Source of the DNA: Escherichia phage ECP2304
Sequence record: OR880647.1
DNA: 63,590 bases
Reading direction: 5' to 3' (one strand)
Part shown: positions 37,366 through 43,834 of the stretch, piece by piece
Layout of the letters: each line of letters begins with the position of its first letter
Position numbering within the stretch: the first letter of the stretch is position 1
Program-made: the position numbers and the translations under genes
The notes under the pieces: generated by a model
Told to the model about the DNA's origin: nothing
Databases searched by the model: none
The model's input: only the letters and a program-made list of their open reading frames with translations

Positions 37366-37592
37366 TAGCGGTCCTCGATTGCTCTAATTGTGGTTAAGTC
37401 TAATTCACAGGTTGGAGGGTATCCATAAAGTCCCATTTGTTTTCCTTGTGCATTAAACCATGTGCCTGACGGATCCTGCCACTGCTTAGGTGTCTTGTGG
37501 AGGAATACTACTCTGTTTTCACCGTAATAATTAATTCTTACGCCTGTGTGAGTATATTTACGTTTACCTTTTGGTCTTCTTAAGTTAGCCAT
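37365..37592 (-). CDS. hypothetical protein (75 aa)
   Basis: Clean ORF. Confidence 0.45.
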   Translation of the reverse strand: MANLRRPKGKRKYTHTGVRINYYGENRVVFLHKTPKQWQDPSGTWFNAQGKQMGLYGYPPTCELDLTTIRAIEDR

Positions 37593-38512
37593 CAGAACAA
37601 CTCCATTACACGATCACGGAATGTGCCGTCATGGGTAGCGTTAATGTTTGCAGCAATTACACCATACGCCCATAAGTTGAAGGCGGCACGTGATTCATAG
37701 ATTGTTGATAAACGTTCGTAAGTGAAACCGTTTTGCTCAAGGTATTTAAGGACAGCGTCTTGTTCAATTTCAGTTAATGTTGAAACATGCTTACCAAAAT
37801 GATGGCGGTCCGGTGACTTATCTGATACGCGCATTGGTCCCCACGGAGGGGTAACCACACTTCCAAACGCTGCCGCTTGAATCCAGGAGGATGAGTCACA
37901 GCTATACCACGGATAACGCTCCATAATGGTTGTGGACGTAATACCAAACGCATGAAGTTTAATTTTAGCACGTCCGCTACCGTCGCAAATATATTTGTCC
38001 CACATGCGGTCCAGCCAAGTTTTAAGCGTGTCCGTTGAACGTCCTACCATGCCCCCAATGGTGATATATTCGTAGTTCTTCATGTAGTATTCAAGATAGC
38101 GGAAGTCCTCCCCAAAGTGAAAGCAAGGTAACGGTTTAGCACCGCGTGCTTCCATTTCAAGCTGGTTACGGTAGGTTTGCAACGGGTCACCAATACCGTC
38201 GAGCACCGACGCCATTACAGCACCATCTTCTACGCGAAGGATGTCTTTGTTACGCTTGATGTATTCGCAGTATTCAACAATATCAATGTGAGCACCCAAA
38301 GAGTGCGCGGAGAATGCACCTGAGTCGAGAAACACTTTAGCCCCATCCGCACGCATTTGATCAACATACTTCTGACGTCCAACGTAGTGGTATGATTCCA
38401 AAATATTTGGAAGGCTATTAACAATGTCTTTTTCCCGATCGTTTAACTTTTCATATCGTTGTTGACCAGCTTTATAGCCGTTGGTATATACCGCAGCGAC
38501 AAACAGATGCAT
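37592..38512 (-). CDS. dpdA: DpdA-like DNA-guanine transglycosylase
   Basis: TGT-superfamily-like FLDSGAFS motif; 306 aa; inside queuosine-precursor gene cluster. Confidence 0.6.
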   Translation of the reverse strand: MHLFVAAVYTNGYKAGQQRYEKLNDREKDIVNSLPNILESYHYVGRQKYVDQMRADGAKVFLDSGAFSAHSLGAHIDIVEYCEYIKRNKDILRVEDGAVMASVLDGIGDPLQTYRNQLEMEARGAKPLPCFHFGEDFRYLEYYMKNYEYITIGGMVGRSTDTLKTWLDRMWDKYICDGSGRAKIKLHAFGITSTTIMERYPWYSCDSSSWIQAAAFGSVVTPPWGPMRVSDKSPDRHHFGKHVSTLTEIEQDAVLKYLEQNGFTYERLSTIYESRAAFNLWAYGVIAANINATHDGTFRDRVMELF

Positions 38513-39069
38513 TATTCCACCTCAAATTTATTACGCTTAGATCTGTTTTCTTCAATAGATAAGTATTGTAGGTTACTAAGGACGTGAAGTCCACTGACTC
38601 TTTTACCGCAAAGGGGTATAATATGATCAACCTCCATCCCATCCGGGCAGTTAGCGTAGAACAATTCAATTTGTTCTTTTTCAGACCACGCAGGGATTCT
38701 TAAAGACCTTTTCTTATGCACTTCAAGGGAATGTAACCTTGATCTAGCTTTACCGTAATCTGTCTTAGCCCAGCGTTTCAGCCTTTCTTTATTTTGTTCT
38801 TTACCTTTCTCAGTAGAATCATAAGCAGCTTTTGAACGTTGAAGGGCTTCTTTTCCTTTCTGTGACTTATGGTATCTCTTAACAGCATTCCTTGCAGCTT
38901 CTGTTTTATTGTAAATACGCATTCTTTTCTTTCGTGCTTCTCTGTCACAAGTAATACAATAGCCATCTACAGTCTTTCTTTCAGAAACATGACCTTTCGC
39001 ACAAGGCTTACCAGTAAAATAATATTTCAAACCTCTTTCTTTTGCTTCAGCTCTTGTGATAATTTCCAT
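38512..39069 (-). CDS. HNH homing endonuclease
   Basis: EVDHIIP...N...N HNH motif; N-terminal zinc module; very basic. Confidence 0.7.
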   Translation of the reverse strand: MEIITRAEAKERGLKYYFTGKPCAKGHVSERKTVDGYCITCDREARKKRMRIYNKTEAARNAVKRYHKSQKGKEALQRSKAAYDSTEKGKEQNKERLKRWAKTDYGKARSRLHSLEVHKKRSLRIPAWSEKEQIELFYANCPDGMEVDHIIPLCGKRVSGLHVLSNLQYLSIEENRSKRNKFEVE

Positions 39070-39139
39070 TGTCTTATACCAACTAAAAAGCCCATACCAG
39101 TATTATGACCGATATGGGCTTGATCTGTAAAGCTATCTA

Positions 39140-39736
39140 TTATTTACAAGCTTCTAGGAACTCACGGCGCCAAATATAACCATTCTCCGTCTCAATACCA
39201 AATTCACCAGTGGCTGTCGCACCGCGAAATGCTTTAGTGATAGTAGAGCTTCCGCATACCTGCTTAACACCGCGCGACTCCATGCACATATGCTTGGCGT
39301 CAATATAAACACATACAGCTTTCGGGTTTAAATGCTCTTGAATAGCGTCTGCAATCTGGTTAGTAAGACGTTCCTGAACTTGCAGTCGACGACTAAAAGC
39401 ATCCACAACGCGAGACAGCTTACTAAGCCCAACGATCTTCCCATTGGGGACATAACCCACAACAGCATGACCGATGATAGGAGCCATATGGTGTTCACAA
39501 TGGCTGTATACAGGAATATCACGGACAATGACCATTTCATTGGTGTTTTCCGCCCCGTCTTCAAAGGTCTTAAACAGACCAGCAATATCTACATCGTAAC
39601 CGCCGAACCATGTAGCATAGGCTTTGGCTACACGTGATGGAGTTTCTTGTAGACCTTGACGTAGAGTAGGTGAAGCATGGTCTTCAATATTAAACAACAG
39701 GGACATCACAGCGTTTTCAACAGCTTTAATATTCAT
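39140..39736 (-). CDS. folE: GTP cyclohydrolase I
   Basis: CEHHM and GLSKL motifs; 198 aa. Confidence 0.8.
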   Translation of the reverse strand: MNIKAVENAVMSLLFNIEDHASPTLRQGLQETPSRVAKAYATWFGGYDVDIAGLFKTFEDGAENTNEMVIVRDIPVYSHCEHHMAPIIGHAVVGYVPNGKIVGLSKLSRVVDAFSRRLQVQERLTNQIADAIQEHLNPKAVCVYIDAKHMCMESRGVKQVCGSSTITKAFRGATATGEFGIETENGYIWRREFLEACK

Positions 39737-39771
39737 GGTTTGCAGTTTCCTTGTTTGTTAATGTGGTCATA

Positions 39772-42479: not shown

Positions 42480-42480
42480 C

Positions 42481-42669
42481 TTAGAACCCTTTAAGGCTAA
42501 TATTAAGATTAACGACCACTTGTTCAACTACATCATCAGATGTCATCTGACGCTTATGAATTTCAAGCTCCGAATGTATGTTCTTTGATGCAGCACGACA
42601 GATAGCGTCATTCAGCTCGTCTTGTAAACGTTGCATCTTCTGCATAAGAATCACAGTTTCTTCATTCAT
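42481..42669 (-). CDS. hypothetical protein, tandem paralog A (62 aa)
   Basis: Similar to adjacent 42662..42874 product. Confidence 0.5.
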   Translation of the reverse strand: MNEETVILMQKMQRLQDELNDAICRAASKNIHSELEIHKRQMTSDDVVEQVVVNLNISLKGF

Positions 42670-42874
42670 CTTCTACACCTTTAATATCACAAGGATTAAT
42701 TGTTACATTTGACATCACAATTGGATGATTGCGTGCCCCGATTGTGCTAACGTGATTAATATCTAATTCTACATGCACGCCCTGCATGGTAGCGTGAGCA
42801 ATTGCAGAATTAAGTTTTTCTACCAGCTCAGTGATCATTTCCTGATGCTGTTTCGCTTCTTCCAAAGTGATCAT
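42662..42874 (-). CDS. hypothetical protein, tandem paralog B (70 aa)
   Basis: GAAGGTGA RBS; similar to 42481..42669 product. Confidence 0.5.
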   Translation of the reverse strand: MITLEEAKQHQEMITELVEKLNSAIAHATMQGVHVELDINHVSTIGARNHPIVMSNVTINPCDIKGVEDE

Positions 42875-43127
42875 TTCTTTTCACCTTCACTAATGTTTGT
42901 TTATAATCCATACCTTCAAGGTCAACTTCTGCCATTTCACAAAAGTTATTATCCTCCCAGTATGGTGTCCATTTAGTTTGACCATCCCTCAATGTTGGCT
43001 CATACTCGAATCCATAAATTGTACCGTCTTGATCCGTAGCTAGCCACCATACCCATTCAGGGACATCAAGCTTATTGCCAAAATATTCAACTTCTTTAGT
43101 ATGCACAACCTGACTTAACACACGCAT
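42828..43127 (-). CDS. hypothetical protein, third member of paralog family
   Basis: Shares motifs with 4187..4438 and 5013..5309. Confidence 0.55.
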   Translation of the reverse strand: MRVLSQVVHTKEVEYFGNKLDVPEWVWWLATDQDGTIYGFEYEPTLRDGQTKWTPYWEDNNFCEMAEVDLEGMDYKQTLVKVKRNDHFGRSETASGNDH

Positions 43128-43834
43128 TATTCCACCCCGATATATTTGTGAACCTGAAGCTGCAATGTGTACCCGTGTTTCATACAGCTTTGGACAACCG
43201 CTTGAATGTTACTGTGGTTAAGATCTTCATCCTGCTCGTCCATTGGCTGTAAATATATCTTACCCTTGAACCCCTTCGGAGGTCTAGCGATAAATGGCGT
43301 AGCCTGATGATCTAATGCTTGAAGAGGTAAACCATCTTCCACGTTTACACAGCACGCTTTAAGTACATATTTAAATGCATTAGCGCGGTACAGCACAGAA
43401 GGATGAATCTTTGAGGTCTTAGGACTACATACAATCACAGGCAACTGGGAAAAGTTCTTAGGTAAAGGCATAGACCCATTAGTTTCAATTTGCACCAAAT
43501 AGCCGCGCGATAACAGTTGTTGAATAAACGGGTTAATTTGCTGACGGAACGGTTCACCCCCAGTAATAACCACAAGTGAGGTGCTATTGCCTGATTCCAG
43601 CTTACGGCTTTCAATTAAACGCATGATATCAACAATGTGATATTTGGTGCGACCGTTGGTATAGTCAGTATCACAGCCCGGACATTGCAGGTTACACCCA
43701 GCAAGACGCACAAATACAGCAGGCTGGCCGCAGAATGGCCCTTCACCTTGAATGGTAGAGAATACCGAATGCACGTCTAAATACATATCGTTTTCTTTAG
43801 AACGAGACTCGGGAGCTTGTTGATTAATATTCAT
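43127..43834 (-). CDS. queE: 7-carboxy-7-deazaguanine synthase (radical SAM)
   Basis: TIQGEG, CNLQCPGCDT cluster, ITGGEP, ETNG; AGAGGA RBS. Confidence 0.8.
   Translation of the reverse strand: MNINQQAPESRSKENDMYLDVHSVFSTIQGEGPFCGQPAVFVRLAGCNLQCPGCDTDYTNGRTKYHIVDIMRLIESRKLESGNSTSLVVITGGEPFRQQINPFIQQLLSRGYLVQIETNGSMPLPKNFSQLPVIVCSPKTSKIHPSVLYRANAFKYVLKACCVNVEDGLPLQALDHQATPFIARPPKGFKGKIYLQPMDEQDEDLNHSNIQAVVQSCMKHGYTLQLQVHKYIGVE

What the first reader, a model, noticed from the sequence alone, without database searches (positions are those of the whole stretch)
37592..43834. Complete 7-deazaguanine (preQ0) DNA-modification module: dpdA, folE, queD, queC, queE
Five minus-strand genes carry the signatures of the queuosine-precursor pathway: FolE (CEHH, GLSKL), QueD (CxxxHGH), QueE (radical-SAM CNLQCPGC, TIQGEG), QueC (SGGQDS PP-loop, C-terminal Cys cluster) and a TGT-superfamily DpdA-like transglycosylase (FLDSGAFS). 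In phages this set replaces genomic guanine with a 7-deazaguanine to evade restriction. I found no amidotransferase-fused QueC, QueF-like reductase or DpdC-like hydrolase, so the inserted base is predicted to be preQ0 itself. The cluster is interleaved with a YhhQ-like transporter, an HNH endonuclease and five unknown ORFs.
Basis: partly seen in the sequence, partly recalled or inferred. Interest (0 to 1): 0.8.

Follow-up and report, generated by a model that had tools for sequence, protein, structure and literature searches.

The report
Known Seuratvirus dPreQ0 DNA-modification gene cluster

Summary
Window 37592-43834 (minus strand) encodes DpdA, FolE, QueD, QueC and QueE, and every quoted motif is at the stated place. 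A YhhQ-like membrane protein, an HNH endonuclease and five small unknown ORFs lie between them.

The window is a complete Seuratvirus (Queuovirinae) genome: 59,895 bp plus an exact 3,695-bp terminal repeat. It is collinear with Escherichia phages KS_A3 and CAjan.

Protein identity to CAjan:
- DpdA 95.8%, with all nine modelled active-site residues kept and residues 37-306 identical
- QueC 98.3%
- QueE 97.9%
- YhhQ-like 97.5%
- FolE 81%
- QueD 75%

In CAjan, LC-MS/MS found dPreQ0 at about 32% of G. Deleting dpdA, folE or queC removed or greatly reduced it, and the modified motifs are GA and GGC.

The window has no Gat domain, QueF, ArcS or DpdC, so dPreQ0 is the expected base. I predict about 7,600 modified sites, or 28.5% of G.

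Local peculiarities are minor: a divergent folE-queD allele, a tract around the HNH gene nearly identical to KS_A3, and a variable DpdA N-terminus.

The parts
37592..38512 (-). dpdA: phage DpdA1-type DNA-guanine transglycosylase (306 aa), which inserts preQ0 into DNA
38512..39069 (-). HNH endonuclease (185 aa); a mobile insertion, not part of the pathway
   Evidence: phrog_1035 'endonuclease VII' E 1.3e-16. A DH...N...N motif lies at aa 148-175. Pfam HNH reaches only E 0.22. It is present in KS_A3 at 98.9% aa, and is replaced by a 68-77-aa ORF in CAjan and VogelGryff.
39088..39121 (-). Terminator-like 14-bp hairpin with a T-run, between folE and the HNH gene
   Evidence: Consensus scan only. 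The number of such sites in the region is no higher than in shuffled sequence.
39140..39736 (-). folE: GTP cyclohydrolase I (198 aa), GTP to H2NTP
   Evidence: PF01227 E 2.8e-62; TIGR00063 and NF006825 both above cut-off. CEHH and HMCMESRG zinc-site motifs are present. Identity to CAjan is only 81% aa.
39772..40308 (-). queD: 6-carboxytetrahydropterin synthase (178 aa), H2NTP to CPH4
   Evidence: PF01242 E 2e-20, above cut-off. TIGR03367 scores 58 bits, below its cut-off of 89. The CRHLHGH motif is present. Identity is 75% aa to both CAjan and 9g QueD.
40310..40579 (-). orf89, unknown
   Evidence: No Pfam, NCBIfam or PHROG hit. It is 98.5% nt identical to VogelGryff and has no detectable similarity to CAjan gp39.
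40576..41154 (-). orf192, unknown; variable N-terminal half and a widely distributed C-terminal domain of about 75 aa
41157..41636 (-). YhhQ/Vut_1-like membrane protein (159 aa); putative preQ0 importer
   Evidence: PF02592 scores 24.6 bits (cut-off 27.2) and TIGR00697 20 bits (cut-off 51). It is 97.5% aa identical to CAjan gp41. It has several hydrophobic segments. BLASTP against E. coli YhhQ is not significant. Deleting it in CAjan did not change the modification (PMC7544227).
41757..42479 (-). queC: 7-cyano-7-deazaguanine (preQ0) synthase (240 aa), single domain with no Gat fusion
   Evidence: PF06508 E 9e-75; TIGR00364 242 bits, above its cut-off of 150. It is 98.3% aa identical to CAjan. 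The SGGQDS PP-loop and the Cys cluster are present. It matches the QueC half of 9g Gat-QueC at only 28%, and the Gat half matches nothing in the window.
42481..42669 (-). orf62, unknown
   Evidence: phrog_24420 E 5.5e-45. It is 85% aa identical to CAjan gp43 and absent from KS_A3. It is weakly similar to orf70 (E 7e-5).
42662..42874 (-). orf70, unknown; homologues carry the label 'radical SAM domain-containing', which is probably a misnomer
   Evidence: phrog_26258 E 2.7e-51. It is 97% aa identical to CAjan gp44 with dN/dS 0.03. It has no Pfam hit.
42828..43127 (-). orf99, unknown; a variable insertion
   Evidence: phrog_1972 E 2e-21. It is absent from CAjan and VogelGryff and 49% aa identical to KS_A3 gene 43.
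43127..43834 (-). queE: radical-SAM 7-carboxy-7-deazaguanine synthase (235 aa), CPH4 to CDG
   Evidence: TIGR04322 and TIGR04508 at E about 5e-28, 98 bits, below their cut-offs of 200 and 240. CNLQCPGC and TIQGEG are present. It is 97.9% aa identical to CAjan gp45.
43856..43909 (-). Promoter-like site (43909-43880) and hairpin (43879-43856) upstream of queE
   Evidence: Consensus scan only, 10 of 12 hexamer matches. Not evidence of function.

Best explanation
The window is a complete Seuratvirus (Queuovirinae) coliphage genome. Region 37592-43834 is its signature 7-deazaguanine module.

Four phage enzymes make the free base preQ0 from GTP:
- FolE converts GTP to H2NTP.
- QueD converts H2NTP to CPH4.
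- The radical-SAM enzyme QueE converts CPH4 to CDG.
- The ATP-dependent enzyme QueC converts CDG to preQ0.

DpdA, a TIM-barrel enzyme of the tRNA-guanine transglycosylase superfamily, then acts on replicated phage DNA. It exchanges guanine for preQ0 at GA and GGC sites, using two catalytic aspartates (D206 as nucleophile, D63 as base).

The predicted result is 2'-deoxy-preQ0 at roughly 28-32% of G, or about 7,600 sites per genome. This blunts type I and type II restriction.

What is shown here: gene identities, motifs, orthology to CAjan, purifying selection and the absence of further tailoring enzymes. What is inferred from CAjan: the chemistry, the target motifs and the protective effect.

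The YhhQ-like protein may salvage preQ0 but is dispensable in CAjan. The HNH gene and the five small ORFs are not conserved parts of the pathway: the related phage 9g has the order dpdA-folE-queD-queC-x-queE without them.
For: - Profile hits for FolE, QueD, QueC and QueE and for DpdA.
- All catalytic motifs are present.
- The cluster is syntenic with annotated Seuratvirus genomes.
- Identity to CAjan is 95.8% for DpdA, 98.3% for QueC, 97.9% for QueE and 97.5% for YhhQ, and 9 of 9 modelled DpdA active-site residues are kept.
- DpdA codons 37-306 differ from CAjan by 28 synonymous and 0 non-synonymous changes. dN/dS is 0.016-0.08 for queC, queE, yhhQ and dpdA.
- There is no Gat domain or other tailoring enzyme.
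- CAjan experiments support the chemistry: dPreQ0 at about 32% of G, with loss of the modification in the dpdA deletion mutant (PMC6884629), GA and GGC motifs, and the effects of the folE, queC and yhhQ deletions (PMC7544227).
- The GA plus GGC count is 28.5% of G in the window and 28.1% in CAjan. This matches the 23.96% plus 4.28% quoted in PMC10484667.
- Seuratvirus phages resist type I and type II RM systems in vivo (PMC8594841).
Against: - There are no chemical data for this particular phage.
- Its folE and queD are a divergent allele: 81% and 75% aa to CAjan, and at most 88.6% nt to any phage record. Their motifs are intact.
- DpdA differs from CAjan at 13 of its first 36 residues, so the motif set could differ.
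- DpdA does not reach any curated threshold: no Pfam hit, NCBIfam bacterial DpdA at 16.9 bits against a cut-off of 200, and no PDB sequence hit.
- The QueE and YhhQ-like hits are below the equivalog cut-offs.
Confidence: 0.93

Rival explanations
1. The module installs a different 7-deazaguanine derivative (dG+, dADG, dPreQ1 or a further tailored form), because one of the unknown ORFs in or near the cluster modifies preQ0.
For: Five ORFs in the cluster have no assigned function. orf70 and orf62 are under purifying selection. Other phages do tailor preQ0 with added enzymes (PMC10516641).
Against: CAjan carries orthologues of orf192, orf62 and orf70, yet its DNA has dPreQ0 with dADG, dG+ and dPreQ1 all below 6 per 10^6 nt (PMC6884629). 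No GATase, QueF, ArcS or DpdC domain was found. orf89 and orf99 are small, variable and absent from CAjan.
Confidence: 0.04
2. The genes serve queuosine or tRNA metabolism, by boosting host preQ0 supply or modifying tRNA, rather than DNA modification.
For: This was the original annotation and hypothesis for Seuratvirus ('queuosine biosynthesis', 'queuine tRNA-ribosyltransferase') (PMC5758909; annotations).
Against: The CAjan dpdA deletion loses all DNA modification and becomes restriction-sensitive (PMC6884629). The phage has no tRNA genes and no queF, queA or queG. At 306 aa, DpdA is much shorter than arcTGT (577 aa in 1iq8).
Confidence: 0.02
3. The module is present but its output differs from CAjan in amount or site. 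The new folE-queD allele or the variant DpdA N-terminus might change flux or motif specificity, for example to GA only as in phage iggy.
For: All 13 aa differences from CAjan DpdA lie in residues 1-36. DpdA enzymes of Queuovirinae do differ in motif: iggy uses GA only (PMC10484667). The folE-queD segment is the most divergent part of the cluster.
Against: The catalytic core (residues 37-306) is identical to CAjan, and all pocket residues are kept. The FolE and QueD motifs are intact and both score above the Pfam cut-offs.
Confidence: 0.1

Closest known systems
Escherichia phage CAjan (Seuratvirus cajan) dPreQ0 system: gp35 DpdA, gp37 FolE, gp38 QueD, gp41 YhhQ, gp42 QueC, gp45 QueE
   Same: Same gene order, strand and neighbours: DNA polymerase and clamp on one side, helicase on the other. 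DpdA, QueC, QueE and YhhQ are 96-98% aa identical, and the DpdA core is 100% identical. The fraction of G in GA or GGC is the same, 28.5% against 28.1%.
   Different: FolE and QueD are only 81% and 75% identical. An HNH gene replaces gp36. orf99 is an insertion absent from CAjan, and orf89 is unrelated to gp39. The DpdA N-terminal 36 residues are a different allele.
Escherichia phage KS_A3 (PP627278), the closest record over the cluster
   Same: 95% nt identity over 92% of the cluster. DpdA is 100% aa identical and the HNH gene 98.9%. The tract from about 37,400 to 39,000 is 99.5-100% identical.
   Different: folE and queD are only 85% and 80% nt identical, orf62 is missing in KS_A3, and orf99 is 49% aa identical.
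Enterobacteria phage 9g (Nonagvirus) dG+ (archaeosine) system
   Same: The core order is the same: pol-clamp-dpdA-folE-queD-queC-x-queE. DpdA is 69% identical, FolE 78%, QueD 75% and QueE 64%.
   Different: 9g has a 471-aa Gat-QueC fusion, which makes dG+. The window has a plain 240-aa QueC that is only 28% identical to the QueC half, and it has no Gat domain anywhere. 9g has no yhhQ-like gene annotated in its cluster.
Bacterial Dpd system (Salmonella Montevideo DpdA/DpdB/DpdC; DpdA structure 7ui4)
   Different: The window protein scores far below the NCBIfam bacterial DpdA cut-off: 16.9 bits against 200. No DpdB- or DpdC-like domains were found in the ORFs scanned. The bacterial system modifies less than 0.1% of G, whereas DpdA1 phages reach about 30% (PMC10516641).
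Pseudomonas phage iggy (Iggyvirus, Queuovirinae) dPreQ0 system
   Same: The same five-gene logic and the same product, dPreQ0 (PMC10484667).
   Different: iggy DpdA is strict for GA (16.5% of G), whereas the CAjan-type enzyme also uses GGC. The genomes share less than 10% nucleotide similarity outside the module (PMC10484667).

Membership tests
Phage DpdA1 (DNA-guanine transglycosylase, TGT superfamily) | Orthology to an experimentally validated phage DpdA | tested here: met
   It is 95.8% aa identical over the full length to CAjan gp35 and 68.6% to 9g gp03. Deleting CAjan dpdA abolishes the modification (PMC6884629).
Phage DpdA1 (DNA-guanine transglycosylase, TGT superfamily) | Two catalytic aspartates and the preQ0/guanine pocket residues | tested here: met
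   D63, S64, F67, D105, H132, G153, G154, F189 and D206 are all identical to the CAjan residues named in PMC7544227. D63, S64, G65, F67, D105, H132, G153, G154, F189 and D206 are invariant in 25 homologues.
Phage DpdA1 (DNA-guanine transglycosylase, TGT superfamily) | TIM-barrel TGT-like fold | tested here: met
Bacterial DpdA equivalog (NCBIfam NF041059) / Pfam TGT | Score at or above the curated cut-off | tested here: not met
   NF041059 scores 16.9 bits against a cut-off of 200, and there is no Pfam hit even at E up to 10. hhalign against E. coli Tgt gives probability 1.8%, although FLDSGAFS aligns with TDSGGFQ. The protein is therefore filed as phage DpdA1, not bacterial DpdA.
GTP cyclohydrolase I (FolE) | Profile score above the curated cut-off, and the zinc-site motifs | tested here: met
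   PF01227 scores 209.8 bits (cut-off 27). TIGR00063 scores 188.8 (cut-off 181.6). CEHH and HMCMESRG are present.
QueD (6-carboxytetrahydropterin synthase) | PTPS fold family with the CxxxHGH motif; equivalog score | tested here: inconclusive
   PF01242 scores 73.4 bits (cut-off 22.4), which is met, and CRHLHGH is present. TIGR03367 scores 58.4 bits, below its cut-off of 89.25. An insertion of about 55 aa splits the domain. It is 75% identical to CAjan and 9g QueD.
QueE (7-carboxy-7-deazaguanine synthase, radical SAM) | CX3CX2C cluster motif, QueE-specific profile, and orthology | tested here: inconclusive
   CNLQCPGC is present. Five QueE models are the best NCBIfam hits (E 5e-28 to 1e-20), but all are below their equivalog cut-offs, for example 98 bits against 200. 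It is 97.9% identical to CAjan gp45. queE was not among the genes deleted in CAjan.
QueC (preQ0 synthase) | Profile above cut-off, PP-loop SGGxDS, zinc Cys cluster, and no fused Gat domain | tested here: met
   PF06508 scores 251 bits and TIGR00364 242 bits (cut-off 150). Both motifs are present. The protein is 240 aa, covered over profile positions 2-209 of 210. The Gat half of 9g Gat-QueC has no match in the window.
YhhQ / Vut_1 queuosine-precursor transporter | Profile score above cut-off; multi-pass membrane protein; transport of preQ0 | tested here: inconclusive
   PF02592 scores 24.6 bits against 27.2, and TIGR00697 scores 20.4 against 50.95. BLASTP against E. coli YhhQ gives E of 1 or more. 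Hydrophobic segments are present. Transport is not testable here. Deleting yhhQ in CAjan had no effect on modification.
Genus Seuratvirus (Queuovirinae) | More than 70% genome-wide nucleotide similarity to a member; QueC rather than Gat-QueC | tested here: met
   Coverage of 86% at 91.3% identity gives about 78% similarity to CAjan. All best megablast hits are Seuratvirus records. QueC is plain.
dPreQ0-type (as opposed to dG+, dADG or dPreQ1) phage modification | The modified deoxynucleoside in virion DNA is dPreQ0 | not testable with these tools
   Predicted from gene content and from the CAjan LC-MS/MS data (PMC6884629). It needs mass spectrometry of this phage's DNA.

The most novel reading that the evidence does not exclude
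The DpdA of this phage, shared with KS_A3, carries a distinct N-terminal allele: 13 substitutions in residues 1-36, while residues 37-306 are identical to CAjan. It sits in a tract next to an HNH homing endonuclease that is nearly identical to KS_A3. If the N-terminus contacts DNA, this allele could change which G contexts are modified (GA, GGC or GGT). Homing-endonuclease-driven exchange would then be a route by which Seuratviruses swap modification specificity. Alternatively, one of the conserved small ORFs (orf62, orf70 or orf75) could be an accessory factor of the system.
Probability: 0.08. Interest if true: 0.45.

Novelty: already known. Interest (0 to 1): 0.12.

Why it matters
It matters mainly as a correct annotation. 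The phage should carry dPreQ0 at about 30% of its guanines. That has several practical consequences:
- resistance to many type I and II restriction enzymes
- reduced Cas9 cleavage in vitro
- lower nanopore read quality
- sensitivity to defence nucleases that target hypermodified DNA, such as the END nucleases (PMC12191111)

It does not open a new question. The pathway, the enzyme, the target motifs and the phenotype have all been published for the sister phage CAjan.

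Tried and rejected
1. preQ1 or other riboswitch in the well-conserved 120-nt queC-yhhQ spacer. Rfam gave no hit at gathering threshold on the whole window, and no queuosine-related family at E up to 10 on 41500-41900. The fold z-score was -1.85. The spacer is not conserved in more divergent loci L014-L018. Rejected.
4. Hidden tailoring enzymes elsewhere in the genome. 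Pfam scans of 20 other ORFs found only replication, recombination and structural families.
5. YhhQ identity by pairwise BLAST to E. coli YhhQ was not significant.
6. Promoter and terminator scan. Site counts were not above the shuffled expectation, so the sites are listed only as candidates.

Full report
**Observation.** Window 37592-43834 holds a run of minus-strand ORFs, tightly packed or overlapping by a few bases.

Profile searches assign four of them without ambiguity:
- FolE, 39140-39736: PF01227 E 2.8e-62, and TIGR00063 above its cut-off.
- QueD, 39772-40308: PF01242 E 2e-20.
- QueC, 41757-42479: PF06508 E 9e-75, and TIGR00364 at 242 bits against a cut-off of 150.
- QueE, 43127-43834: five QueE models are the best NCBIfam hits, E down to 5e-28, though all are below their equivalog cut-offs.

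The fifth gene, 37592-38512, has no Pfam hit and only a marginal NCBIfam bacterial DpdA hit (E 0.002). It matches PHROG 887, 'queuine tRNA-ribosyltransferase', at E 4e-94.

The only corrections are the true starts of QueC (42479, 240 aa) and the YhhQ-like gene (41636, 159 aa), taken from homologue alignment.

**What the window is.** The first 3,695 bases are repeated exactly at the end. The window is therefore a 59,895-bp genome with a direct terminal repeat.

Megablast places it in the genus Seuratvirus (Queuovirinae). Over the cluster it is 95% identical to Escherichia phage KS_A3. It is 92-93% identical to CSP1, Greed, VogelGryff, Seurat and others, whose annotations already read DpdA, FolE, QueD, QueC, QueE and preQ0 transporter.

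The genome is collinear with KS_A3 and CAjan, at about 86% coverage and 91% identity to CAjan. Different regions have different best relatives. It is therefore a mosaic, not-yet-deposited member of a well-sampled genus.

**Link to experiment.** Protein identity to phage CAjan is 95.8% for DpdA, 98.3% for QueC, 97.9% for QueE, 97.5% for YhhQ-like, 81% for FolE and 75% for QueD. The nine residues that Kot et al. assign to the DpdA preQ0/guanine pocket and catalysis are all identical.

Against CAjan, DpdA codons 37-306 carry 28 synonymous and no non-synonymous differences. dN/dS is 0.016-0.08 for queC, queE, yhhQ and dpdA. The genes are therefore under strong purifying selection.

Published results for CAjan:
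- LC-MS/MS found 70,628 dPreQ0 per 10^6 nt, about 32% of G.
- dADG, dG+ and dPreQ1 were all below 6 per 10^6.
- A dpdA deletion had no modification and was cut by all tested restriction enzymes (PMC6884629).
- Nanopore work showed the sites are GA and GGC.
- Deleting folE or queC greatly reduces the modification, and deleting yhhQ does not (PMC7544227).

Counting GA and GGC on both strands gives 28.5% of G (7,598 sites) in this genome and 28.1% in CAjan. This agrees with the 23.96% plus 4.28% quoted for CAjan in PMC10484667.

**Which base.** The sister genus Nonagvirus (phage 9g) makes dG+ because its QueC is fused to a glutamine amidotransferase domain. The 9g cluster has the same core order. 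Its DpdA, FolE, QueD and QueE match the window at 64-78% identity.

Only the QueC half of 9g Gat-QueC matches the window, at 28%. The Gat half matches nothing in the window. The window QueC is a single domain, covered end to end by the Pfam model.

Pfam scans of 20 other ORFs found dUTPase, RNase H, ligase, AAA_24, DUF669, PDDEXK, HNH_3 and DUF6453. They found no GATase, QueF, ArcS or DpdC.

**Fold test for DpdA.** Sequence methods cannot connect it to solved TGT enzymes. An AF2 model built from 25 homologues of about 70% identity is mediocre, with pLDDT 61, and Foldseek gave nothing significant.

**Mechanism.** The four-enzyme pathway converts GTP to free preQ0. DpdA then exchanges preQ0 for G in duplex DNA after replication, at GA and GGC. 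The outcome is partial protection from restriction.

BASEL Seuratvirus phages resist type I and II RM systems but remain sensitive to type III (PMC8594841). END nucleases target hypermodified phages, including Seuratvirus (PMC12191111). The gene identities and motifs are shown here. The chemistry, the motifs and the phenotype are inferred from CAjan.

**Accessory genes.** None of the interleaved ORFs has a counterpart in the 9g core cluster, apart from the C-terminal domain that orf192 shares with 9g gp07.
- The HNH gene (phrog_1035) is present in KS_A3 and replaced by a short ORF in CAjan and VogelGryff.
- orf99 and orf89 vary between relatives.
- The orf192 C-terminal domain occurs in 703 phage records, many without dpdA. 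Its structure search was uninformative.
- The YhhQ-like protein scores just below the Pfam and NCBIfam cut-offs.

**Local peculiarities.**
- The dpdA-HNH tract (about 37,400-39,000) is 99.5-100% identical to KS_A3.
- The adjacent folE 5' end and queD fall to 65-74%.
- folE-queD reaches at most 88.6% nt identity to any phage record.
- All 13 amino-acid differences from CAjan DpdA lie in the first 36 residues.

These features fit recombination around a homing endonuclease. They are minor variations on a known theme.

**Verdict.** The system is already known: it is the defining feature of the genus, experimentally dissected in CAjan and annotated in dozens of genomes. Interest is low.

Noticed in passing
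window 1-3695 and 59896-63590: An exact 3,695-bp direct terminal repeat, so the unique genome is 59,895 bp. It carries small early-region ORFs. The related phage iggy has a 1,091-bp DTR (PMC10484667). GenBank relatives are deposited without the repeat.
   Followed up: partly
window about 37400-39000, against 39600-40200: dpdA plus the HNH gene are 99.5-100% nt identical to KS_A3. Flanking DNA is 88-96% identical, and the folE 5' end and queD are only 65-74%. This looks like a recent exchange or co-conversion tract around a homing endonuclease.
   Followed up: partly
window 39140-40308: The folE-queD pair is the most divergent part of the cluster, with at most 88.6% nt identity to any of 50,697 phage records. 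Neighbouring genes are 92-100% identical.
   Followed up: partly
window 38405-38512 (DpdA codons 1-36): All 13 amino-acid differences from CAjan DpdA lie in the first 36 residues. Codons 37-306 have 28 synonymous and 0 non-synonymous changes.
   Followed up: partly
window 40576-41154 (orf192): The C-terminal domain of about 75 aa (NKYQ..VDVYDVL.AW..NPALQHLIKKALQPGERGHK..DL.DII.SA.RA.E) is nearly invariant. It is found in 703 phage records, including Rtp and Jersey-like phages without dpdA, and in 9g gp07. It has no Pfam, PDB or fold match.
   Followed up: yes
window 41637-41756: The 120-nt queC-yhhQ spacer is 98-99% conserved among Seuratviruses, more than the flanking genes, and has a CCGCACC...GGTGCGG hairpin. 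It has no Rfam match, including the preQ1 riboswitch families. It is not conserved in divergent loci L014-L018.
   Followed up: yes
window 42481-42874 (orf62, orf70): These two adjacent small ORFs are weakly similar to each other (E 7e-5 over 26 aa). The orf70 family carries the label 'radical SAM domain-containing protein' in CAjan and in PHROG 26258. It is 70 aa with a single Cys and no Pfam hit, so the label is probably an annotation error.
   Followed up: partly
window 37365-37592 (orf75): This 75-aa ORF lies between the clamp gene and dpdA. It is 100% aa identical in the window, CAjan and KS_A3, with 4 synonymous and 0 non-synonymous differences from CAjan. It is absent from 9g at this position. 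It matches PHROG 38388, function unknown.
   Followed up: no
window 42828-43127 (orf99): A variable insertion whose 3' end overlaps orf70 by 47 nt in another frame. It is absent from CAjan and VogelGryff and 49% aa identical to the KS_A3 counterpart.
   Followed up: no
window 43904-44713 (orf269): This protein has an Ala/Lys/Glu-rich N-terminal half and a conserved C-terminal domain. It is 95% identical to CAjan gp46, which is annotated 'FtrA domain', and 38% identical to 9g gp09. It lies directly upstream of queE in both genera.
   Followed up: no
window 26432-32733: The tail-fibre and receptor-binding locus has no similarity to KS_A3 but is covered by vB_EcoS_SA126VB. It contains a minus-strand DUF6453 gene at 27171-28172 (E 1e-131).
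   Followed up: no
window 58249-58773: A second homing-type endonuclease, with HNH_3 (E 3e-21) and a weak AP2 domain. There are no tRNA genes anywhere in the genome.
   Followed up: no
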